DNA of 64,000 nt from Gemmatimonadales bacterium (GTDB lineage Bacteria; Gemmatimonadota; Gemmatimonadetes; Gemmatimonadales; GWC2-71-9): assembly GCA_019637315.1 (NCBI GenBank), contig JAHBVU010000011.1, positions 7,242-71,241 on the forward strand. Reading direction: 5' to 3'. The position numbers and the translations under genes were made by a program. Under the pieces are notes generated by a model. It was not told where the DNA came from and searched no databases. It saw only the letters and a program-made list of their open reading frames with translations. The stretch's first letter is position 1. Each line of letters starts with the position of its first letter. Positions 53,526 through 62,928 of this stretch are shown one piece after another.

Positions 53526-55031
53526 TCAAGCCGGTCGTCGCGGGGGACGGCTGCCGTCTCGGGGCTTCCGGTCTCGCGGCGCCCGGTCCCGCGATTCGCG
53601 ATCCCGTGAATCACGATCGCGAGAGTCGCTCTCGCGGCTCCGGTCGAGTCGCGCCGCCAGGCGGCGTCCCTTGTACTCGTGGCCGGCGAGCTTCTCGGCG
53701 GCGTTGATCGCGTCGAACTCGCTCGTCATTTCCACGAGTGAGAAGCCATCGCGGAGTTCCAGCCGACCAAGCGTGTCTCGCTTGACGCCGGCGCCGAGGA
53801 CCACGCTGAGCAGCTCGGCCGGGGTTGCACCGTCTTTGCGACCGAGATTGATCCAGACCTTGGGATGGGGCGACGTCAGCGGCGCGCTTGTGGCTGCGGG
53901 CGCGGGTGCTCGGGTCCGGGCTTCGGTCCAGAGGCTCTGGACGGCCACCGCCACCTCGGCGCCGCTCCAGCGGTCCAGCAGCGGGGCGACGGTGGCGTAA
54001 GCTCCCCGATCGATCGGGCCTTCCAGTCGGGAGCGGATGGCGCGCCGATCTTCCTGAATGGCTCGCTCGGCCTGGTCGAGGCCGCCGGGCAGCGTCAGTG
54101 GGTCGATCCGCCCGGCAATCCGGGCAAAGTAGCGCTCGGCGCCCGGGGCAATCAGCACGACGCTCGTGTCGAGGGCGGCCTGGGCGAGCAGTTCCGGCGG
54201 GGGGGCATCGAAAAAGATCGTGGCCGGTCCGGCGGGAATGGCGCCGGCCACCGGTCGGGCGGTGACACCATGCCCGGCGAGTCGTTCGGTCAGCGCCTCG
54301 TGCGAGTCGGCCGACGCGGTCCAGACTTCGACCTCGTCCAGGTTGAGCAGGTCGGCGGCGCGGGCCACGGCGGCGAGCCGGTCATCCCAGCGGACCGCGG
54401 CACCGCGGACCCGGCCGAGCTGCGCCGGCTGGGTCGGGTTGGCCAGCGGCCCCATGGTCGGTGCGCGCCAAGCGTAGCGTTCGGCGAAGGTGGCGGTCCC
54501 TGCCGGGTCGGTCGTCACGACGACCCGCTGGGTTTCCTTCGGCAGGTCGGCAAAGATCGGCACGAAGCCTTCGTCGGACAGCTCCAGTTCAGGCCAGATG
54601 ATGACCACGCCCCGGATCCCATCGGTGCGCAGCTGGCTGCGGCGGAGCAGTTCGGTGGTGGTGGCGAGGGACAGGACCAGCGCGGCAACGCGGCTGGAGG
54701 CGAGGTGGTGCGCGGCCCGACTGGGATTCGGCGCGACGGCGACCGTGATGCCGGCTTGTCGACCGGCCAGCGCAACGGCCTGGCCCCAGGCTTCGAGGGA
54801 CGCGTCCGGGGCGATGACCAGGACCGGTCCCGCCTCGGCCGATTCGGCCGGGCGCCCGAGCAGGGCGGCAAGGACGGGAAGGGTGTAGGCCGGGGCCGGC
54901 GGGGCAGCCAAGACGAGGCTGTTGCCGCGGGCGGCTACGGCGGCGGCGGATGCTACCCCAAAGGCTTCCAGCGACCCGCTCACCGGCGGGTTGGTCAGTT
55001 CGACGTCGGACACGGGTACCTCGATTGTCAA
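53526..55031 (-). CDS. DEAD-box-helicase-like protein with degenerate ATPase/helicase motifs and an intact DbpA-type C-terminal RNA-binding domain plus an RD/RS-rich tail (putative pseudo-helicase)
   Basis: Collinear with DEAD-box proteins, but every ATPase/helicase motif is substituted: Walker A AxTGSGKT becomes [14 protein letters not shown] becomes [13 protein letters not shown] becomes [12 protein letters not shown] becomes WPEL, SAT becomes TTD, and HRIGRTGR is absent. The C-terminus …[47 protein letters not shown]… matches the DbpA/DeaD RNA-binding domain, followed by [14 protein letters not shown]…. Confidence 0.65.
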
Positions 55032-55160: not shown

Positions 55161-56387
55161 GTGACGAAGGTGCTTCGCCTCCCCGATCCTGTGTCCAGCA
55201 ATCTGACCCACATCAAAGGTTCCGAAACGGTCGCCATCAACGCCGAGGCGCGCCGACTCCGTGCGTTGGGCAAGGACGTGGTCGACCTGAGCGTCGGGGA
55301 GCCTGACTTCGATACGCCGGCGCCGGTGGCGCAGGCGGGAATCCAGGCGATTCAGAAGGGGCAGACCCGGTATCCGCCCAACGTCGGCATTCCGGAACTA
55401 CGGAACGCCATGGCCACCCATTTGAGCCAGCTCTCGGGAGGCCGCGCGGTCGATCCGGATCGCTTCGTGATCAGCTCGGGGTCGAAGCAATCGCTCTTCA
55501 ACGCCTGCTTTTCGCTGTTCGGGCCGAAAGACAAGGTCCTGATTCCGGCGCCGGCCTGGGTCTCGTATCCCCAGATCGTGCACCTCTCGCGGGCCGAGCC
55601 GGTGATGGTGCCGGGCGAAGTCGAGTGGGGGCTCAAGGTCAGCGTCAAAGATCTCGATCGGCACTTCGACAAGCTCGTGCGCGGCATCATTCTCTGCTCG
55701 CCGTGCAATCCGACCGGGGCGGTCTACACCCTGTCAGAACTTCGTGCCATCGGCGACTGGGCCCGGAAGCACAACATCTGGGTCATCAGCGACGAGATCT
55801 ACCGCCGGATCTACTACGGGCCGGGGGCGGCTCCGTCGTTCTTCGACCTGCCGGACGAGTATCTCGAGAAGACCGTCGTCATCTACGGCGCCAGCAAAGC
55901 GTATGCGATGACCGGCTGGCGGATCGGCGCGGCCTACGCGCCGCCGACCATCGTCAAGGCCATGGCCAACCTGCAGTCGCACACGACGACCGGGGCCAAT
56001 CATCCCGCCCAGGTAGCGGCGGCAGCGGCCTTTTCGGATCCCAAGGTCGAGCAGGAAGTCGTCAAGATGACGGCCGCATTTCGTCGGCGGCGCGATCGGC
56101 TGGTCGAGCGGTTTCGGACCGAAGCGCCCGGCATCGAGTTCGTCGAGCCGCTGGGTGCGTTCTACCTGTTCTTCCGGGTCGACGGCATTCGCCAGAAGCC
56201 GGTGGTGACCGGTACCAAGTTCTGCGAACGCCTGCTCACCGAGCACGGTGTGGCGGCGGTGCCGGGCGCCGCGTTCGGCGACGACCGTTGGATTCGGCTC
56301 TCGTACGCCGCGTCGGACAAGGATCTCGAGAAGGCGATCCATCGGTTGATGCGCTGCATCGCGGAGTTCGAAGCGGGCGGGGTGTGA
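55161..56387 (+). CDS. pyridoxal-phosphate-dependent aminotransferase, class I (aspartate aminotransferase-like)
   Basis: GTG start. …SGSKQS…, PLP-lysine context …YGASKAYAMTGWRIG…, and AAT-I fold collinearity. Confidence 0.9.
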   Translation: MTKVLRLPDPVSSNLTHIKGSETVAINAEARRLRALGKDVVDLSVGEPDFDTPAPVAQAGIQAIQKGQTRYPPNVGIPELRNAMATHLSQLSGGRAVDPDRFVISSGSKQSLFNACFSLFGPKDKVLIPAPAWVSYPQIVHLSRAEPVMVPGEVEWGLKVSVKDLDRHFDKLVRGIILCSPCNPTGAVYTLSELRAIGDWARKHNIWVISDEIYRRIYYGPGAAPSFFDLPDEYLEKTVVIYGASKAYAMTGWRIGAAYAPPTIVKAMANLQSHTTTGANHPAQVAAAAAFSDPKVEQEVVKMTAAFRRRRDRLVERFRTEAPGIEFVEPLGAFYLFFRVDGIRQKPVVTGTKFCERLLTEHGVAAVPGAAFGDDRWIRLSYAASDKDLEKAIHRLMRCIAEFEAGGV

Positions 56388-57313
56388 GTACGCGGCTCCT
56401 CTTTGCACGAGTGCGCCGGGCGATTGAGGGCACCCCCGGCGCCGTGGCGGCCTCGACCATGCCGCCGGCTGTCGAGGGGCGCCCCGATGTCTACCGCCAG
56501 ATCCAGTCGACCGTCGTCGAAGGGTCGACTCTTGCCGTGCATCCGGTGACCCGGAGCCCGTGCCCTGAGCCGATTGCTTTTCTCGACGGCACGCAGCGCT
56601 ACGAAGTCGTCAGTTATGTCGGCACTTCGCCGGTGGTGGCGGCCCTGATTGGCGCCGCGGTCCGCCTCCGGGTCGACGGGCAGTTCCGCACGGTGGCGCA
56701 CGACGGCGGCCGGCTGCTGATCGGTGCGCCGAATGCGCTGGCTGCCTTTGCCGATCGGCTGCCGGATTTTGGCCGGGTCGAGCTCGATCTCGACGGCCCG
56801 GTTCATCCCCTCGAAGAACTCGAGAAGGCGCACCGAGCGGTCGATGACTACCGCAGCGCGCTGGAGTGGCGGGTCGCTGCGCAGTTTCGCCGTGACGATC
56901 CGTCCTGGCTCGTCGTCGACGGTGTGTTACCCCATTTCGATCGGCTCGGGTCTGATCCGCGCGTCATCGGGGTGTCGAAAAGCCACGCGACGCTGCCCTT
57001 CGACGATCCCGAGACCAGTCACCTGTACTTGTCGCTGCCGCAGGGGCACCGGACCAGTGTGTTCCGCCCCGCGACGCCCCACGCGGCACCGGTCGATTCC
57101 TGGGCGCTTCGACTCTGGGCGCACGAGGGCAAAGATCTTTTCCACGGCCTGGTGCGCATCGAAGTCGCGGCCCGCACCGAGCGGGCTGAGCACGCCGAGC
57201 GCGTCTCGGGCTGGCTCCTGGCCGAGCGGGCCCCGATTGCTCGGCCCGACGCGCGGTGGGACCGCTTGCTGTACGGCGTGGCCCAGGTCGAACGCCATTT
57301 GAGGGCCCGATGA
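56384..57313 (+). CDS. NurA-like 5'-3' nuclease (RNase-H-like fold), partner of the HerA-like ATPase
   Basis: GTG start overlapping the aspC stop (GTGA). ~310 aa. Candidate catalytic motifs …IAFLDGTQRYE… (DGS/T-type Asp motif) and …RVIGVSKSHA…. Its stop overlaps the HerA-like start (ATGA). The call rests mainly on size, motifs and position immediately upstream of herA-sbcD-sbcC. Confidence 0.55.
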   Translation: MSTRLLFARVRRAIEGTPGAVAASTMPPAVEGRPDVYRQIQSTVVEGSTLAVHPVTRSPCPEPIAFLDGTQRYEVVSYVGTSPVVAALIGAAVRLRVDGQFRTVAHDGGRLLIGAPNALAAFADRLPDFGRVELDLDGPVHPLEELEKAHRAVDDYRSALEWRVAAQFRRDDPSWLVVDGVLPHFDRLGSDPRVIGVSKSHATLPFDDPETSHLYLSLPQGHRTSVFRPATPHAAPVDSWALRLWAHEGKDLFHGLVRIEVAARTERAEHAERVSGWLLAERAPIARPDARWDRLLYGVAQVERHLRAR

Positions 57314-59223
57314 TCGGACGTGTCGTCGCGACGGAGCTCAAACCGAGTACGCCGCATCAGTTCCTGTTTTGGACCGCGCGAGACACGGCCGTAGGCATCG
57401 GTTCCATCGTCCGGGTCGAGTCGCCCGGGCGATCAGTCTATGGCGTCGTGACGGATGCGTTTGCCTATTCGGACCTGGCAACCCCGATGGACGCGGTCTA
57501 CGGCGCCGACGGCGATCCCAACAGCCCGGTCGAGCCCAGCGAGCGGAGTGAGATCCGCCTGTTCCAGACCGCCGTGCTGCGCCACGAGCCGGAGGAGCCA
57601 CTGCAGGCCGTGCCGCTCGGTGAGGTGCACCTTGCCTCCGACGAAGATGTGGCCTTTGCGCTCAGGATGGACGCCTACATCGGCGGCGACAAGCCGACCG
57701 GCGTGCCCGTCGGCGTCTATGCCGCAGGCGGGCTCGAGGCTCCCGTGTACCTCGACGCCGACTTTCTGCTTGGCCCGGAAGCCGCGCATCTCAACATTAC
57801 GGGGGTGTCCGGTCTGGCCACGAAGACTTCGGCGGTCGAGTTCTTTCTGACCTCGATTTTTCAGCGGTTTCCGCCGCACAAAGGGCGGGTCGCGGCGCTC
57901 TGCTTCAACGTCAAAGGCCCTGACCTGCTGTTTCTCGATCGGCAGGGCACCCTGAACGACCAGGATCGCCACCTGTATGACCGGCTCGGTCTCGAGCCGC
58001 GGCCCTTCGATCGGGTGCGCTACTTTGCGCCGTTCAAGAATGACGGCGTCAATCTCAACACCCTGCGCACCAATCCCGAGCTGATTCCGACCGAGCCGCT
58101 CGTCTGGGGCCTTCGCGAGGTACTGGACTACACCGAAGTGCTGCTCAACCGCGACGACATCGATGCCAAGGCCGACGGCTTCATCGATTTCCTGGCGGAG
58201 CGGGTCGTCGGCAAAGAGTTTAATGACGAGGTGTCGGGGCAGACCTTTGCGGTGCGCAGCTTTGCCGAGCTCGAAGACTTCTTCAAGGCGATCTTCAACT
58301 TTCTCGAAACGACTCGGGGCAGCGAGATCTGGCGCACGCATCATGTTGCCACCATTCGGAAAATCCGCAATCGGCTTGGCAATATCAGCACCCGGTCCAA
58401 GGGCTTGGTGACCGACAACGGTGAGGTCAATGATTTGCCGTGGGGCGAGTTCGGCGACCGGACCGTCTATGTCGTGGACGTCGCGGGTCTCGATCCGCTG
58501 GCGCAGGATCTCGTCTTTGCGCGGATCGTGTCCAAGCTGCGCGAACATCTCGAGCGTCGGGATCTTGGCGTCGAGCACGTCGCGGTCTTCGTCGACGAGC
58601 TCAACAAGTATGCTCCGCAGGAAGGGCACGACACCTACGTTCGGAAGATGTTGCTCGACCTTTCCGAGCGGGGTCGCTATCTCGGCCTGGTGCTCTTCTC
58701 GGCGCAGCAGTTTCGCTCCCAGGTGCACAAGCGGGTCGTCGGCAATGCGGGTACGGCGGTCTACGGCCGGCTCGATGCGGATGAGCTCGCTACGCCGGGG
58801 TACGGGATTCTGTCGCCGGCCATCAAGGCCAAGCTGGCGGCGCTGCCCAAGGGCGAGCTGATGATCCGTCACCCGCATTTTACCCAGCCCATCTTTCTTC
58901 GTTTTCCGCGGCCGTCGGTACTGTCGGGGCGGGAAGGCATCGATCGCTATCCGCCGGAACCCGAGGTGCCGTTCGAGGATGCCGTGGTGCGCCGGCTCCG
59001 GGCCCTCGAACCAGGCTTGCCCGGCAATCGGATCAAGGACCTGATTGCCGGCCGAGCTCAGGATGACGTGGTGCGGGCGCTCCACGCCACCATCCGCAAC
59101 CGGCCAGGCGATGTGGTCGCCTTCTTCGTCAAATGCCTCGGCCGCGAGGTTCGAACCCGGTCGGTGGCACCGACCAACGGCGGGGTTACCCGCCTCAAGA
59201 GCGTCGACGACCCCTACGCCTGA
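57310..59223 (+). CDS. HerA-like hexameric ATPase/helicase (FtsK-HerA superfamily, DUF87-type) with an N-terminal HAS-barrel
   Basis: N-terminus MIGRVVATELKPSTPHQFLFWTARDTAVGIGSIVRVE…SVYGVVTDAF is a HAS-barrel. Walker B …VAVFVDELNKYAP… and a sensor region …LGLVLFSAQQFRSQV… are present. The expected P-loop position reads HLNITGVSGLATKTSAV, which is not a canonical GxxxxGK[ST]. Confidence 0.75.
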   Translation: MIGRVVATELKPSTPHQFLFWTARDTAVGIGSIVRVESPGRSVYGVVTDAFAYSDLATPMDAVYGADGDPNSPVEPSERSEIRLFQTAVLRHEPEEPLQAVPLGEVHLASDEDVAFALRMDAYIGGDKPTGVPVGVYAAGGLEAPVYLDADFLLGPEAAHLNITGVSGLATKTSAVEFFLTSIFQRFPPHKGRVAALCFNVKGPDLLFLDRQGTLNDQDRHLYDRLGLEPRPFDRVRYFAPFKNDGVNLNTLRTNPELIPTEPLVWGLREVLDYTEVLLNRDDIDAKADGFIDFLAERVVGKEFNDEVSGQTFAVRSFAELEDFFKAIFNFLETTRGSEIWRTHHVATIRKIRNRLGNISTRSKGLVTDNGEVNDLPWGEFGDRTVYVVDVAGLDPLAQDLVFARIVSKLREHLERRDLGVEHVAVFVDELNKYAPQEGHDTYVRKMLLDLSERGRYLGLVLFSAQQFRSQVHKRVVGNAGTAVYGRLDADELATPGYGILSPAIKAKLAALPKGELMIRHPHFTQPIFLRFPRPSVLSGREGIDRYPPEPEVPFEDAVVRRLRALEPGLPGNRIKDLIAGRAQDDVVRALHATIRNRPGDVVAFFVKCLGREVRTRSVAPTNGGVTRLKSVDDPYA

Positions 59224-59320
59224 CCTGTGGTGGAGTCGCCCCCGCACGAACCCGCCGGTCGCCGACCTCGAACCCCTCGGACGAGGTGACCGGGGCGCGA
59301 CTCTTGGGCTAGATTAGACC

Positions 59321-60499
59321 GTGCTGCTCGCTCACCTTGCCGATCTGCATCTCGGCTACCGCCAGTATTACCGTCAGACCGCCGCGGGCATCAACCAGCG
59401 CGAGGCCGACGTCGCGCGCGCGTTCGTCCAGGCGGTCGATCAAGTCATTGCCAAGCAGCCTGACGTCATTGTCGTCGCGGGCGACCTGTTCCACGCGGTG
59501 CGCCCGACCAACCAGGCCATCATTCACTGCTTCCGGCAGTTCCAGCGGATTCGAGAGGCGCTTCCCGCTGCAAAGGTCCTGATCGCGGCCGGCAACCACG
59601 ACACGCCTCGGGCCACCGAAACCGGTTCGATCCTCAAGCTCTTTGCCGGTCTCGGGATCGAGGTGGCGACGGACGACGCGGCCATCGTGCGGTATCCCGA
59701 CCTCGATCTGGCGGTCAAGCTGGTGCCGCACGCCGCGCTGGTAGCCGACGACCGGCCGCGTCTCGATCCCGAGGGTGACGAGCGCTACCAGGTTCTGGTG
59801 CTCCACGGCGACACCCCCGATCTCGACCCGCTCGACCGCTGGTGGGCCGAGCCGGGCGGGGCGGCGGTCGATCCGAGCGAGTTTGCCGACCCCCGTTGGA
59901 ACTACGTCGCGCTCGGTCACTATCACGTCATGCTGAAGGTTGGCCCGCACGCCTGGTATTCGGGGGCGCTCGACTATGTCACCCCGAACCCCTGGGGCGA
60001 ACTGGCGAAGCAGAAGGCGCACAAGGTTCCGGCCAAAGGGTGGCTCCTGGTCGACCTCGAAACCCGCCAAGTCATGCCGCAGTACCTCGAGTCAGCCAGG
60101 CGGCTGATCGACCTGCCACCGATCGAGGCGCGGGACCTCGCCGCGTCGGAGATCGACCGAGCTATCCAGGAGAGGCTGGCCAGTATCCGGGGCGGGTATG
60201 CCGAGCAGCTGGTTCGCCTGGTTGTGCGGGATGTGCCCCGGTATGTCGCTCGCGAGCTGGATCATGCGGCGATTCGCACCGCCAAGGCCACCGCGCTCCA
60301 TTTCCGTCTCGATCTGCGGCGACCGGAAGTGCATCGGACGGTCGGGGTTGGTGCGCCTGGAGCGCGCCAGACGCTGACGGACGTGCTGAGGGGCTTCCTG
60401 GCTCGGCGCCCTTTGCCTGAGCGGGTCGACCGCGATGCCTTCGTGACTCGCGGGACGGCCATGCTCGATGCGGTTTCGGCGGCGGCGTCGGAGGGCTGA
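59321..60499 (+). CDS. sbcD: Mre11/SbcD-family DNA-repair nuclease (calcineurin-like phosphoesterase)
   Basis: GTG start. Phosphoesterase motifs I DLHLG, II GDLFH, III GNHD, IV LHGD, V GHYH. Confidence 0.9.
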   Translation: MLLAHLADLHLGYRQYYRQTAAGINQREADVARAFVQAVDQVIAKQPDVIVVAGDLFHAVRPTNQAIIHCFRQFQRIREALPAAKVLIAAGNHDTPRATETGSILKLFAGLGIEVATDDAAIVRYPDLDLAVKLVPHAALVADDRPRLDPEGDERYQVLVLHGDTPDLDPLDRWWAEPGGAAVDPSEFADPRWNYVALGHYHVMLKVGPHAWYSGALDYVTPNPWGELAKQKAHKVPAKGWLLVDLETRQVMPQYLESARRLIDLPPIEARDLAASEIDRAIQERLASIRGGYAEQLVRLVVRDVPRYVARELDHAAIRTAKATALHFRLDLRRPEVHRTVGVGAPGARQTLTDVLRGFLARRPLPERVDRDAFVTRGTAMLDAVSAAASEG

Positions 60500-62928
60500 T
60501 GCAGATCCGGCGCCTCCGTCTGCTCAACTTCCGGCAGCATGCCGACACCACGCTCGCGTTCGAGTCCGGGCTGACCGGGATCATCGGACCGAACGGCGCC
60601 GGCAAGTCCACCCTGCTCGAGGCGGTGGCCTGGGCGATGTACGGTACCCAGGCGGCCCGCGGCACCCGCGACAGCATCCGGCGTCGCAATGCACCGCCGC
60701 GGTCCCGGGTCGAGGTCGAGCTCGAGATTGCCATCGGAGCCCAGGTCTATCGGGTGGTGCGGTCGCTGCAGACGGCGGCATTGTACCAGGACGGGGGTCC
60801 CTCGCCGATTGCCAACAGCGGCGCGGCCGTCACCGACAAGATCACCCGCTTGCTGGGGATGACGCGGGACGAATTCTTCAACACCTACTTCACGGGTCAG
60901 AAGGAACTGGCGATCATGGCGTCGATGTCGGCGCCGGAGCGGGCCAAGTTCCTGAGCCGGGTGCTGGGCTACGAACGTCTGGCCATGGTTCAGCTCAAGT
61001 TGCGCGACGAGCGAACCGGTCTCCGGGGAGCGTTAGGCGTGGCCGAGTCTGCGCTGGGCGACCTGGCGGAGCTCGACCGCGAGGCGGCGGAGGTCGAAGC
61101 GCGGGTCGCCGCCGCGGATACCGCGCTGGGCACAGCCGGCGCCCGACGCGAGACGGCCGATGCCGTGCTGGCCTCGCTGGCGCCGGAATGGGAAGAGGCT
61201 CAGCGCCGTCGTGATGAAGTCGCCGCGATCCAGACCGACCTGAGCATTGCCGAGCATGCGGCAGTCGAGGCCAAGCGTGCCTTCGAAGCAATCGACCTCG
61301 ATATGGCGGATGCCATTGCCGCCAGCACCAAGCGGGAAGAGCTGGCCCCTCGTCTGGCGGATTGGGACGCGCTGGTGGCCCGACGTGACGGGCTCGAACA
61401 GGCTGCGTCGGCGTTTTCCGAGCGGCGGGCCATGGATGCTCAGGCGGCTGAGGTTCGCAAGCTCCTGGCCGGTCAGGAGACGCGGCTGAGCGAACTGCCC
61501 GATCAGGCCCGCCTCGATGCGGCTCGGGCGGAGCTGGCGATTCTGCAGGAGAGCGCCCACCAGGCTGCGCACACGCTCGAAGAGCAGCGGACCGAGTGGG
61601 TCCGCGAAAAGCAGGACGCCGAGACGATGCGGAAAGGGCTGCTCAACGAATACGAAGAAGTGGCGGAGCAGAAAGCGCGTCTCGAGGCGGCCGGCGCAGC
61701 CGGGATCTGCCCGACCTGCGGTAAGCCGCTCGGTGCGGAGTATGGCGGCGTGCTCGACGATCTGGAAGGGCGCCTGGCCGACATCCGCGGCGACGGCAAG
61801 CACTATCGGGCCCGGATCGATCAGCTCTCGAGCGAGCCCGAGGGTGTTGTGGCGGCCAAACGGGTGCTGGAGCAGGCCGAGGCCGATCTCAAACGTCTGA
61901 CCGCGGGAGTCGGGCGGATGACGGAGGCGGTGGCGGAGCGGGTCCGGATCGAGGCGGCTCTGGTCGCGCAGCGGGAACGGCTGGCCGACCTCGATGCCCG
62001 TCTCGCGGCGACGCCGTCGTCGTACGACGAAACCGAACACGTTCGTGTGCGCGCTCGTGTTGCCGAGCTGACGCCGCTGCGGGATGAACTGATGCGGATC
62101 GCGGCCCGGGCGGATCGTGCCCCCGAGCTGCTCCAGAAGGCTACTGCGGCCGAGCAGCACTTGACGCGGCTCGAAGCAACTGCTCAGGCGCTGCGGGACA
62201 AGCTCTCCGCGCTGGGATGGTCCGTCGAGGCGTTTGCCCTGCTCAAAGAGACGTTCCTGGCAGCCGAGCGCGAGGCGCGTGACGCCCACCTGGCTTTGGT
62301 ACGGGCGCAAGCCGAGCATGCCGCTGCGCTGGAGCAGCGAGCCTCGCTGTCACGGCGGCGGGAGGAGCGTGATCGGCGTCTTGCCGAGGCCGAGCGTTTG
62401 CGGAGCGACCTGGCCATGAACCAGGAGTTGGATCGGGCCTTCAGTGAGCTGCGGGATGACCTCAATGCGGCCTTGCGTCCCGACCTGGCGGATGCGGCCT
62501 CGACCCTGCTGCGAGATCTCACCAATGGCCGGTACACGGACCTGGAACTGGACGAGGACTACCTCGCCACCATCGTGGACGACGGCGAGCCCAAACAGGT
62601 CATTTCAGGCGGTGAAGAGGATGTCACCAACCTGGCCTTGCGGCTCGCCATCAGTCAGATGATTGCGGAGCGGGCGGGGCAACCGTTTTCGCTGCTGATC
62701 CTCGATGAGGTGTTTGGTTCGCTCGATGAGGAGCGTCGCAACGCCGTGATGGATCTGCTGCGCGGCCTGGCCGATCGGTTCCCCCAAGTGATTCTGATTA
62801 CGCATATCGAGTCGGTGCGCGACAGCTTTGATCGGATTGTTCGGATCGACTACGATGTCGAGTCCGGGGTTGCCTCCGCGCGGGAGGAAGATCCGCAGCG
62901 AGGCGGGATGTCGCATGCCGCGGCGTGA
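60499..62928 (+). CDS. sbcC: Rad50/SbcC-family SMC-like ATPase with a CxxC zinc hook
   Basis: The ATG overlaps the sbcD stop (TGATG). N-terminal Walker A GPNGAGKST, a ~600-aa coiled coil with the central hook CPTCGKPL, and a C-terminal signature/Walker B/D-loop …LLILDEVFGSLDEER…. Confidence 0.9.
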   Translation: MQIRRLRLLNFRQHADTTLAFESGLTGIIGPNGAGKSTLLEAVAWAMYGTQAARGTRDSIRRRNAPPRSRVEVELEIAIGAQVYRVVRSLQTAALYQDGGPSPIANSGAAVTDKITRLLGMTRDEFFNTYFTGQKELAIMASMSAPERAKFLSRVLGYERLAMVQLKLRDERTGLRGALGVAESALGDLAELDREAAEVEARVAAADTALGTAGARRETADAVLASLAPEWEEAQRRRDEVAAIQTDLSIAEHAAVEAKRAFEAIDLDMADAIAASTKREELAPRLADWDALVARRDGLEQAASAFSERRAMDAQAAEVRKLLAGQETRLSELPDQARLDAARAELAILQESAHQAAHTLEEQRTEWVREKQDAETMRKGLLNEYEEVAEQKARLEAAGAAGICPTCGKPLGAEYGGVLDDLEGRLADIRGDGKHYRARIDQLSSEPEGVVAAKRVLEQAEADLKRLTAGVGRMTEAVAERVRIEAALVAQRERLADLDARLAATPSSYDETEHVRVRARVAELTPLRDELMRIAARADRAPELLQKATAAEQHLTRLEATAQALRDKLSALGWSVEAFALLKETFLAAEREARDAHLALVRAQAEHAAALEQRASLSRRREERDRRLAEAERLRSDLAMNQELDRAFSELRDDLNAALRPDLADAASTLLRDLTNGRYTDLELDEDYLATIVDDGEPKQVISGGEEDVTNLALRLAISQMIAERAGQPFSLLILDEVFGSLDEERRNAVMDLLRGLADRFPQVILITHIESVRDSFDRIVRIDYDVESGVASAREEDPQRGGMSHAAA

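What the first reader, a model, noticed from the sequence alone, without database searches (positions are those of the whole stretch)
57310..59223. HerA-like ATPase with an apparently non-canonical P-loop (GVSGLATKTS instead of GxTGSGKS)
At the position where HerA/FtsK ATPases carry Walker A, the protein reads HLNITGVSGLATKTSAVEFF. Read this way, there is a two-residue insertion and no Gly preceding the Lys. Walker B (VFVDELNKYAP) and the sensor region look intact.
Either this is a lineage-specific P-loop variant that still binds NTP, or the ATPase is impaired and the protein acts as a scaffold for NurA/SbcCD. The DNA (ctcaacattacgggggtgtccggtctggccacgaagacttcggcg) was re-read, so the peptide is not a translation slip.
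Basis: seen in the sequence. Interest (0 to 1): 0.55.

Follow-up and report, generated by a model that had tools for sequence, protein, structure and literature searches.

The report
Bacterial HerA with family-typical odd P-loop
The unusual ATP-binding loop is really there, but it is the normal, conserved version found in a whole family of bacterial HerA DNA-repair motors, one of which (from Deinococcus radiodurans) has been crystallised with ADP and shown to be an active ATPase, so the gene is an ordinary working member of a known family.

Summary
The gene at 57310-59223 (+) encodes a 637-aa HerA-like protein reading HLNITGVSGLATKTS, and it has no GxxxxGK[ST] anywhere.

The "impaired ATPase / scaffold" reading is not supported:
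- **Closest solved relative.** D. radiodurans HerA (PDB 7F6D/7WRW/7WRX) reads [10 protein letters not shown] at the same position.
- **Published function.** In its ADP complex, K175 contacts the beta-phosphate and T176 binds the metal. K175 mutants lose ATPase activity (PMC9960219). These residues are K172/T173 here.
- **Family-wide motif.** G-x-S-G-x-A-x-K-T-S occurs in all 98 site-covering sequences among the best 150 family representatives, down to 27-35% identity.
- **Purifying selection.** GVSGLATKTS is unchanged in all 80 Gemmatimonadota loci. The 77 loci matched with their flanking residues give 76 distinct DNA versions of that stretch.
- **Catalytic residues.** Walker B (D429/E430), the beta2 K202/D205 and arginine R456 are invariant in the family.

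By spacing, the loop is one residue longer than the canonical one, not two.

The gene lies in a NurA-like / HerA / Mre11 / Rad50 cluster, which recurs across Gemmatimonadota and in two other bacterial lineages.

Verdict: a functional DNA end-resection translocase, a new member of a known kind, and of low interest.

The parts
56384..57313 (+). NurA-like nuclease gene (309 aa), the upstream partner of herA. Its stop overlaps the herA start (ATGA).
   Evidence: A 100% identical 309-aa protein is annotated as hypothetical in a Gemmatimonadales MAG. There is no Pfam or PDB sequence hit. The AF2 model has pLDDT 82.7. Its best Foldseek hits are D. radiodurans NurA 7f6d_G (E 3.7e-11), TM1739 1zup and S. 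solfataricus NurA 2ygk. Residues such as D68 (FLDG), D179 (VVDG) and H201 are invariant.
57310..59223 (+). herA gene (637 aa), a bacterial NurA-associated HerA hexameric translocase/ATPase.
   Evidence: phmmer against PDB gives one hit, D. radiodurans HerA 7f6d_B, at E 4.6e-38. The family profile hits it at 3.9e-126 over the full length. Foldseek's top 7 hits are D. radiodurans HerA chains, followed by archaeal and defence HerAs.
57331..57471 (+). N-terminal HAS-barrel segment (residues 8-54).
   Evidence: Pfam PF09378 scores 23.1 bits, E 7.8e-5, just under the 25.2-bit cut-off. Some close homologues carry a precomputed PF09378 hit.
57802..57831 (+). Variant Walker A / P-loop, G165-V-S-G-L-A-T-K172-T173-S174.
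   Evidence: The DNA is confirmed. The loop aligns column for column with drHerA G168-ISGVAT-K175-T176-S177. It is invariant in 38 close homologues. G165, G168 and K172 are invariant, and S167, A170 and S174 at least 90% conserved, in 55 homologues of 27-51% identity. It sits between predicted beta1 (160-164) and alpha1 (169-186).
57904..57924 (+). beta2 segment FNVKGPD, holding K202 and the catalytic acid D205 (equivalent to drHerA K217 and D220).
   Evidence: K202 and D205 are invariant in alignment A2. The correspondence is counted from the alignment. Roles are taken from PMC9960219.
58585..58617 (+). Walker B, VFVDELNKYAP (D429/E430, equivalent to drHerA D487/E488).
   Evidence: D429 and E430 are invariant. 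The drHerA Walker-B mutant is ATPase-dead.
58663..58686 (+). SERGRYLG segment holding R456 (equivalent to drHerA R513, the trans-acting arginine).
   Evidence: R456 is invariant. It aligns with ERGRSLG of drHerA. The role of R513 is stated in PMC9960219.
59321..60499 (+). Mre11/SbcD-type phosphoesterase gene (392 aa).
   Evidence: Pfam Metallophos scores 4.8e-11. NCBIfam Mre11_Sulfo scores 8.1e-20 and sbcd 8.8e-17, both below their cut-offs.
60499..62928 (+). Rad50/SbcC-type SMC-like ATPase gene (809 aa), with a canonical Walker A (GPNGAGKST) and a CPTC zinc-hook motif.
   Evidence: Pfam hits are SMC_N 1e-21, AAA_23 and SbcC_Walker_B. NCBIfam Rad50 PRK03918 scores 1.2e-55. The sequence is read.

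Best explanation
The gene encodes a working HerA ring translocase of the bacterial NurA-associated type, whose prototype is D. radiodurans HerA.

Its nucleotide-binding loop, G-V-S-G-L-A-T-K-T-S, is the standard Walker A of this family. It is one residue longer than GxxxxGK[ST], with small residues (Ala, Thr) where canonical HerAs have the single Gly before Lys.

By homology:
- K172 contacts the beta/gamma-phosphates and T173 binds the Mg2+/Mn2+ ion.
- D429/E430 (Walker B) and D205 (end of beta2) complete the catalytic site.
- R456 reaches into the neighbouring subunit's site in the hexamer.

The N-terminal HAS barrel docks a dimer of the NurA-like nuclease encoded immediately upstream. ATP-driven DNA translocation feeds a broken DNA end to NurA for resection, together with the Mre11-Rad50 pair encoded downstream.

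Shown here: the sequence, family membership, conservation of all catalytic residues, the NurA fold of the partner, and operon conservation. Inferred from the prototype: nucleotide binding, hexamer formation, NurA/DNA-stimulated ATPase activity, and the resection role.
For: 1. D. radiodurans HerA is the only PDB sequence hit (E 4.6e-38). It carries [10 protein letters not shown] aligned to GVSGLATKTS.
2. The family profile matches it at 3.9e-126 end to end.
3. The AF2 model's top 7 Foldseek hits are drHerA chains, E 4e-29 to 8e-27.
4. PMC9960219 reports that the Walker A lies between beta1 and alpha1, that K175 pairs with the ADP beta-phosphate, that T176 binds Mg2+, that K175 and D487/E488 mutants lose ATPase and resection, and that ATPase is stimulated up to 70-fold by NurA plus DNA. 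My count from the alignment puts K175/T176 exactly on the K-T of ATKTS.
5. T. thermophilus HepA, a bacterial HerA homologue preceded by a NurA gene, is reported to have ATPase activity. Its P-loop sequence was not examined here.
6. Of the best 150 family representatives (50% clusters), 98 carry the 9-residue motif G-x-[STA]-G-x-[AGS]-x-K-[STN]. None has a canonical motif at the site. The rest are fragments or frameshifted entries.
7. In 55 members of 27-51% identity, G165, G168, K172, K202, D205, D429, E430, R456 and Q467 are invariant.
8. All 80 Gemmatimonadota loci encode GVSGLATKTS. The 77 loci matched with their upstream flank give 76 distinct DNA versions of that stretch, with only synonymous changes in the ten motif codons.
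9. The upstream ORF has a NurA fold.
10. The NurA-like / HerA / Mre11 / Rad50 order is kept in most Gemmatimonadota loci. It also occurs in a Dehalococcoidia contig and a candidate division WS2 contig.
Against: - No biochemical data exist for this protein or for any Gemmatimonadota member.
- Identity to drHerA is only about 26-30%.
- The AF2 model is mediocre (mean pLDDT 67, about 53 over residues 161-170), so the loop geometry is not established here.
- drHerA R154, proposed to contact the gamma-phosphate in trans, is Asp151 here and varies in the family.
- Pfam and NCBIfam do not recognise the ATPase domain.
- drHerA is itself a weak ATPase with Mg2+, 10-100-fold below S. solfataricus HerA. 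'Active' may therefore mean slow and partner-gated.
Confidence: 0.85

Rival explanations
1. The altered P-loop has crippled ATP hydrolysis, and the protein serves mainly as a passive ring or scaffold that holds NurA and Mre11-Rad50 on DNA.
For: The loop lacks the Gly before Lys and is one residue too long. The prototype drHerA and Thermus HepA have low stand-alone ATPase activity.
Against: The same loop binds ADP in drHerA, and its Lys is needed for ATPase and for resection. The Walker A Lys/Thr, Walker B D-E, the beta2 Lys/Asp and the arginine finger are all invariant over a family down to 27% identity. The loop codons show only synonymous change in 77 loci. A scaffold would not need this conservation.
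Confidence: 0.05
2. The longer P-loop is a functional adaptation. It keeps basal hydrolysis low and shifts metal preference (Mn2+ over Mg2+), so that the motor fires only when NurA and DNA are bound. On this reading the kinetics or cofactor use differ in kind from archaeal HerA.
For: drHerA is 10-100-fold slower than S. solfataricus HerA with Mg2+. It is enhanced by Mn2+ and stimulated up to 70-fold by NurA plus DNA. The variant loop is fixed in the whole family, and positions K-2 and K-1 admit only small residues: A/G/S and T/A/S/C/G.
Against: This is correlation only. The same paper offers another possible cause, since residues 220-260 partly block the ATP site. No loop-swap experiment exists. 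It overlaps with, rather than excludes, the best explanation.
Confidence: 0.08
3. The gene belongs to an anti-phage defence system built on a HerA ATPase (such as SIR2-HerA, DUF4297-HerA or MADS), not to DNA repair.
For: There are weak PADLOC hits: mad8 at 1.8e-7 and HerA 'Type III coevolved' at 5.9e-6 for HerA, and mad3 at 4e-36 for the Rad50-like protein. Defence HerAs appear among the Foldseek hits at E about 1e-16 to 1e-13.
Against: The neighbours are a NurA-fold nuclease, Mre11 and Rad50, not SIR2 or DUF4297. The PADLOC hits are partial and superfamily-level. The cluster sits next to an aminotransferase gene in conserved synteny across dozens of Gemmatimonadota genomes, which is unlike a mobile defence island. 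The defence HerA sampled (8wiv) has a canonical GSTGSGKS loop.
Confidence: 0.02

Closest known systems
Deinococcus radiodurans HerA (PDB 7F6D, 7WRW, 7WRX), the bacterial NurA-HerA end-resection complex
   Same: Full-length homology (profile E 3.9e-126, and the top Foldseek hits). The same variant Walker A ([10 protein letters not shown] against GVSGLATKTS). The same Walker B (DELNKYAP), beta2 FNVKG-x-D and ERGR arginine. A NurA-fold partner is encoded immediately upstream.
   Different: Only about 26-30% identity. drHerA R154 is Asp here. This protein has an extra, partly helical C-terminal tail of about 90 residues. Here herA is also followed directly by Mre11-Rad50 genes; from my own knowledge, not tested here, the D. 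radiodurans sbcCD genes lie elsewhere in that genome.
Thermus thermophilus HepA/HerA (TTC0147)
   Same: A bacterial HerA homologue preceded by a NurA gene, with a HAS barrel and Walker A/B motifs. It is a hexamer with low ATPase activity and has repair phenotypes (PMC5448004).
   Different: I did not have its sequence in hand, so whether it shares the motif is not verified. In Thermus it has additional roles in competence and transjugation.
Archaeal HerA (S. solfataricus 4D2I; T. kodakarensis 9X1L)
   Same: The same overall fold (Foldseek E 1e-15 to 6e-19) and the same HAS-barrel, RecA-like core and helix-bundle plan. The same four-gene partnership with NurA, Mre11 and Rad50.
   Different: They have a canonical 8-residue Walker A (AATGSGKS, AVTGAGKS), one residue shorter between the beta1 His and the Lys. 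Sequence similarity is detectable only over the C-terminal half. By published account, their ATPase with Mg2+ is much higher.
Defence-system HerAs (SIR2-HerA / Nezha, DUF4297-HerA)
   Same: The HerA fold. Weak profile hits over the Walker B half.
   Different: A canonical GSTGSGKS loop in the one sampled (8wiv), different partner proteins and a different genomic setting.

Membership tests
Bacterial NurA-associated HerA (D. radiodurans HerA type) | End-to-end sequence and fold similarity to drHerA | tested here: met
   phmmer gives 4.6e-38. The family profile gives 3.9e-126 over profile positions 4-544 and chain residues 9-604. Foldseek's top 7 hits are drHerA chains, with TM about 0.65-0.70.
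Bacterial NurA-associated HerA (D. radiodurans HerA type) | Walker A of the form G-x-S-G-x-A-x-K-T-S, with the Lys and Thr that bind phosphate and metal | tested here: met
   GVSGLATKTS aligns with [10 protein letters not shown] (K175/T176). The motif is present in all 98 site-covering representatives.
Bacterial NurA-associated HerA (D. radiodurans HerA type) | Walker B D-E, catalytic acid at the end of beta2, and a trans-acting arginine | tested here: met
   D429/E430, K202/D205 and R456 align with D487/E488, K217/D220 and R513, and are invariant.
Bacterial NurA-associated HerA (D. radiodurans HerA type) | N-terminal HAS-barrel domain | tested here: inconclusive
   Pfam PF09378 scores 23.1 bits, below the 25.2-bit cut-off. 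The region aligns with drHerA, but the model's confidence is low for residues 50-100.
Bacterial NurA-associated HerA (D. radiodurans HerA type) | An adjacent gene for a NurA nuclease partner | tested here: met
   The upstream ORF's model (pLDDT 82.7) best matches drNurA, TM1739 and S. solfataricus NurA. There is no sequence-level hit.
Bacterial NurA-associated HerA (D. radiodurans HerA type) | Hexameric ring, DNA/NurA-stimulated ATPase, and DNA translocation | not testable with these tools
   This needs purified protein. It is known only for the D. radiodurans and Thermus homologues.
Canonical Walker A P-loop NTPase motif GxxxxGK[ST] | A literal match to [GA]xxxxGK[ST] | tested here: not met
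   There is no match anywhere in the 637 residues. The distance from first Gly to Lys is 7 rather than 6, and the residue before Lys is Thr.
Pfam/NCBIfam HerA-type ATPase models (e.g. DUF87) | A profile hit at or above the curated cut-off | tested here: not met
   No ATPase-domain family was reported, even at E up to 10. NCBIfam gave nothing.
Anti-phage HerA systems (SIR2-HerA, DUF4297-HerA, MADS) | A HerA gene paired with the system's effector (SIR2, DUF4297 or the mad genes) | tested here: not met
   The neighbours are NurA-like, Mre11 and Rad50. PADLOC gives only weak partial hits.

The most novel reading that the evidence does not exclude
The 9-residue Walker A (G-x-S-G-x-A-x-K-T-S) is a defining shared trait of every bacterial NurA-linked HerA, and it is the structural cause of their very low basal, Mn2+-favoured, NurA- and DNA-gated ATPase. 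On this reading it is a built-in 'safety catch' on an end-resection motor. It would also be a rare natural example of a P-loop that works with an extra residue and no glycine next to the lysine.
Probability: 0.15. Interest if true: 0.45.

Novelty: new member of a known kind. Interest (0 to 1): 0.15.

Why it matters
The practical value is for annotation:
- This large bacterial HerA family has at least 1,342 clusters at 50% identity.
- Pfam and NCBIfam did not recognise its ATPase domain.
- Members are mostly labelled 'ATP-binding protein' or 'hypothetical protein'.
- Their NurA partners get no sequence-level hit at all, and only a fold comparison recognises them.

Knowing that the family's Walker A is G-x-S-G-x-A-x-K-T-S prevents members from being misread as dead ATPases. 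It also helps flag complete archaeal-style NurA-HerA-Mre11-Rad50 repair clusters in Gemmatimonadota, Chloroflexota and other bacteria.

Mechanistically, the one-residue-longer P-loop is a modest curiosity. It could be probed by loop-swap mutants in the already crystallised D. radiodurans protein.

Tried and rejected
- **Genome scan.** It gave operon and codon-level conservation but no taxonomic breadth. Breadth came from the 50%-cluster search and a few contig look-ups.
- **Papers not held.** Cheng 2015 (J Bacteriol), Iyer 2004 and Rzechorzek 2014 are not in the library. The K175 mutant result is therefore cited second-hand from PMC9960219.
- **Motif search in papers.** A literal search for the motif strings found nothing relevant. 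I could not find an explicit published remark that the loop is non-canonical.
- **Short pairwise alignments.** Aligning the P-loop region against three canonical HerAs gave inconsistent gap placement. The S. solfataricus alignment, one of four equally scoring ones, showed a one-residue gap next to the loop. The other two shifted register. HMMER's profile alignment to T. kodakarensis HerA stops at the first loop Gly. The 'one extra residue' claim therefore rests on spacing counts (Gly to Lys 7 against 6, His to Lys 12 against 11), not on a residue-level structural superposition.
- **NurA partner by sequence.** Single-sequence and profile searches against PDB and Pfam found nothing. Only the fold comparison identified it.
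- **Alternative start.** I considered the GTG at 57256 and rejected it on homologue lengths and the ATGA overlap.
- **Defence-system reading.** Considered and rejected on gene context.
Full report
**1. Observation**

It lies inside an ORF that runs to the stop at 59223. The ORF can start at GTG 57256 or ATG 57310. ATG 57310 is the likely start for two reasons. The closest homologues are 636-637 aa and begin at the same Met. The ATG also overlaps the stop of the upstream ORF as ATGA.

The 637-aa product reads ...AAH160-LNIT-G165-VSG168-LA170-T171-K172-T173-S174-AVEFF. A regex scan finds no [GA]xxxxGK[ST] and no GK[ST] anywhere in the protein. The only other K[ST] is at residue 630, in the disordered tail. 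Walker B, VFVDELNKYAP, is at residues 426-436. The peptide and the absence of a canonical P-loop are therefore real.

**2. What the protein is**

- phmmer against all PDB chains returns a single hit, D. radiodurans HerA (7f6d_B), at E 4.6e-38.
- A profile of 55 diverse family members hits the same chain at E 3.9e-126 over its whole length. Archaeal and defence-system HerAs are reached only through the C-terminal, Walker-B half, for example 9x1l at 7e-16 and 4d2i at 1.8e-7.
- An AlphaFold2 model (mean pLDDT 67, pTM 0.67) places the motif between strand 160-164 and helix 169-186.
- The model's seven best Foldseek hits are D. radiodurans HerA chains, at E 4e-29 to 8e-27. T. kodakarensis HerA, SIR2-HerA and S. 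solfataricus HerA follow.
- Pfam reports only a sub-threshold HAS-barrel hit, at 23.1 bits against a cut-off of 25.2. It reports no ATPase-domain family even at E up to 10. NCBIfam reports nothing.

**3. The motif in the solved relative**

In the alignment, D. radiodurans HerA reads [21 protein letters not shown] opposite HLNITGVSGLATKTSAVEFFL. Counting along that alignment puts the Lys and Thr of ATKTS at K175 and T176.

The structure paper (PMC9960219) reports the following:
- The Walker-A motif lies between beta1 and alpha1.
- D487/E488 form Walker B.
- D220, at the end of beta2, is the catalytic acid, with K217 nearby.
- R513 acts in trans.
- Citing Cheng et al. 2015, mutating K175 or D487/E488 impairs both ATPase activity and DNA resection.
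- The ATPase is weak with Mg2+, 10-100-fold below S. solfataricus HerA.
- It is enhanced by Mn2+ and stimulated up to 70-fold by NurA plus DNA.

That test is met.

T. thermophilus HepA is another bacterial HerA homologue preceded by a NurA gene, and it is also reported to have ATPase activity (PMC5448004). I did not see its P-loop sequence.

**4. Conservation**

*Size of the family.* The all-against-one HMMER search finds 1,342 cluster representatives (50% identity) at E <= 1e-3, and 313 at E <= 1e-30.

*The motif across representatives.* Among the best 150, 98 contain G-x-[STA]-G-x-[AGS]-x-K-[STN]. The remaining 52 are fragments that do not reach the site, or visibly frameshifted entries. None has a canonical motif at that place. 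The column make-up of the 98 is:

| Position | Residues (count) |
|---|---|
| 1 | G 98 |
| 3 | S 94, T 3, A 1 |
| 4 | G 98 |
| 6 (K-2) | A 93, G 3, S 2 |
| 7 (K-1) | T 63, A 21, S 10, C 2, G 2 |
| 8 | K 98 |
| 9 | T 90, S 7, N 1 |
| 10 | S 95, T 3 |

Both positions before Lys accept only small residues. That fits a loop packed tightly against phosphate; this point is an inference.

*Catalytic residues.* In 55 full-length members of 27-51% identity to the window protein, the invariant columns are G155, G165, G168, K172, K202, D205, D429, E430, R456, Q467 and G486. They map onto drHerA as follows:

| Window residue | drHerA residue | Role (PMC9960219) |
|---|---|---|
| K172 | K175 | Walker A Lys, contacts beta-phosphate |
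| T173 | T176 | binds Mg2+ |
| K202 | K217 | beta2 Lys near the catalytic acid |
| D205 | D220 | catalytic acid |
| D429/E430 | D487/E488 | Walker B |
| R456 | R513 | trans-acting arginine |

*Codon level.* All 80 related Gemmatimonadota loci encode GVSGLATKTS. The 77 loci matched together with their upstream flank give 76 distinct nucleotide versions of that stretch, with synonymous variation at every motif codon and no amino-acid change in it. This is strong purifying selection on the whole catalytic apparatus and does not fit a decayed ATPase.

*One exception.* drHerA R154 is Asp151 here and varies in the family.

**5. How the loop differs from the canonical one**

Canonical HerA loops read directly from PDB chains are RHFAILAVTGAGKSNT (T. 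kodakarensis), RHLAILAATGSGKSNT (S. solfataricus) and RHSAVLGSTGSGKSTT (SIR2-HerA 8wiv).

- The conserved His at the start of beta1 is 11 residues from the Lys in these three chains. It is 12 residues away in drHerA and in the window protein.
- The first loop position is 6 residues from Lys in GxxxxGK, and 7 here.

The simplest reading is G-x-[ST]-G-x-(G to A)-(+1 small residue)-K-[ST]. That is a one-residue lengthening, not two.

Short pairwise alignments did not settle which residue is the inserted one, and my model is too uncertain over residues 161-170 to say. A residue-level superposition of 7WRX on 4D2I or 9X1L would settle it.

**6. Surroundings**

- **Upstream ORF, 56384-57313.** It is 309 aa and 100% identical to a hypothetical protein of a Gemmatimonadales MAG on a 4.4-Mb contig. 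It has no Pfam or PDB sequence hit, even with a profile. Its model (pLDDT 82.7) best matches D. radiodurans NurA (7f6d_G, 3.7e-11), TM1739 (1zup) and S. solfataricus NurA (2ygk). It is a NurA-fold nuclease.
- **Downstream genes.** An Mre11/SbcD-type phosphoesterase lies at 59321-60499. A Rad50/SbcC-type ATPase with a canonical GPNGAGKST loop and a CPTC hook lies at 60499-62928.
- **Conservation of the order.** The NurA-like / HerA / Mre11 / Rad50 order is kept in most of the 80 Gemmatimonadota loci. It recurs around family members of about 29-30% identity in a Dehalococcoidia contig (there the partner has a weak Pfam NurA hit) and in candidate division WS2. Two other members have only an upstream partner of about 300 aa.
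- **Defence systems.** PADLOC gives only weak, partial superfamily hits. The cluster lies in conserved synteny next to an aminotransferase gene. This argues against a defence island.

**7. Mechanism**

Shown here: family membership, an intact and conserved catalytic set, a NurA-fold partner, and a conserved repair operon.

Inferred from the D. radiodurans prototype:
- The protein forms a hexameric ring.
- K172/T173 bind nucleotide and metal.
- D429/E430 and D205 catalyse hydrolysis.
- R456 couples neighbouring sites.
- The HAS barrel docks a NurA dimer.
- ATP-driven translocation feeds DNA ends to NurA for resection, alongside Mre11-Rad50.

Rivals:
- **Dead scaffold.** Contradicted by the conservation and by the prototype's biochemistry.
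- **Defence-system HerA.** Contradicted by the gene context.
- **Longer loop tunes the ATPase.** It may set the low basal, Mn2+-favoured, partner-gated activity. This is possible but untested, and it refines rather than replaces the main explanation.

**8. Novelty**

The protein is a new, uncharacterised member from a Gemmatimonadales MAG. It belongs to a family whose prototype has a crystal structure with nucleotide bound at the same variant loop.

I found no paper in the searchable library that spells out the motif or comments on its departure from the Walker consensus. The family-wide 9-residue loop is therefore an under-remarked detail rather than a discovery. Interest is low.

Noticed in passing
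window 56384-57313 (+): The ORF upstream of herA is a NurA-fold nuclease that no sequence library recognises (Pfam, NCBIfam and PDB profile searches are all empty). It evolves much faster than HerA: 36-57% identity against 67-86% across the same 80 loci.
   Followed up: yes
window 59321-62928 (+): The Mre11-like and Rad50-like proteins score higher on archaeal Mre11/Rad50 NCBIfam models than on bacterial SbcD/SbcC models. Rad50 PRK03918 scores 1.2e-55 against sbcc 2.1e-27, and Mre11_Sulfo 8e-20 against sbcd 9e-17. All are far below the curated cut-offs. With NurA and HerA they form an archaeal-style four-gene cluster in a bacterium.
   Followed up: partly
window 53526-55031 (-): In this 501-aa protein, only a C-terminal DbpA RNA-binding domain is detected (E 1.6e-8). 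The N-terminal 390 or so residues give no DEAD or Helicase_C hit, and the tail is rich in R-D/S-R repeats. It may be a degenerate DEAD-box helicase relative.
   Followed up: no
family members P0202 and P0171: Two full-length relatives depart further from the loop consensus. P0202 reads GISGLAAKNS, with Asn instead of the metal-binding Thr/Ser after Lys. P0171 reads GMAGLAGKT.
   Followed up: no
window 57760-57762 (HerA residue D151): R154 of D. radiodurans HerA was proposed to contact the gamma-phosphate from the neighbouring subunit. It is Asp here and is not conserved in the family, so that contact is probably not general.
   Followed up: partly
L081 3987-10590; L083 4058-10092; L084 and L086: The same NurA-like / HerA / Mre11 / Rad50 order occurs in a Dehalococcoidia contig and a candidate division WS2 contig. 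Two other distant members (P0193, P0166) have only the upstream partner of about 300 aa, with no Mre11/Rad50 nearby.
   Followed up: partly
window 57433-59247 (-) and other long antisense ORFs: A 604-aa ORF runs antisense through the whole herA gene, and similar long shadow ORFs cover neighbouring genes. This is expected in very GC-rich DNA and is not evidence of genes.
   Followed up: no
database entries P0147, P0164, P0206: Several cluster representatives of this family are frameshifted across the P-loop region, with Arg/Pro/Ser-rich nonsense upstream of an intact FNVKGP. They could mislead automated motif tallies.
   Followed up: no
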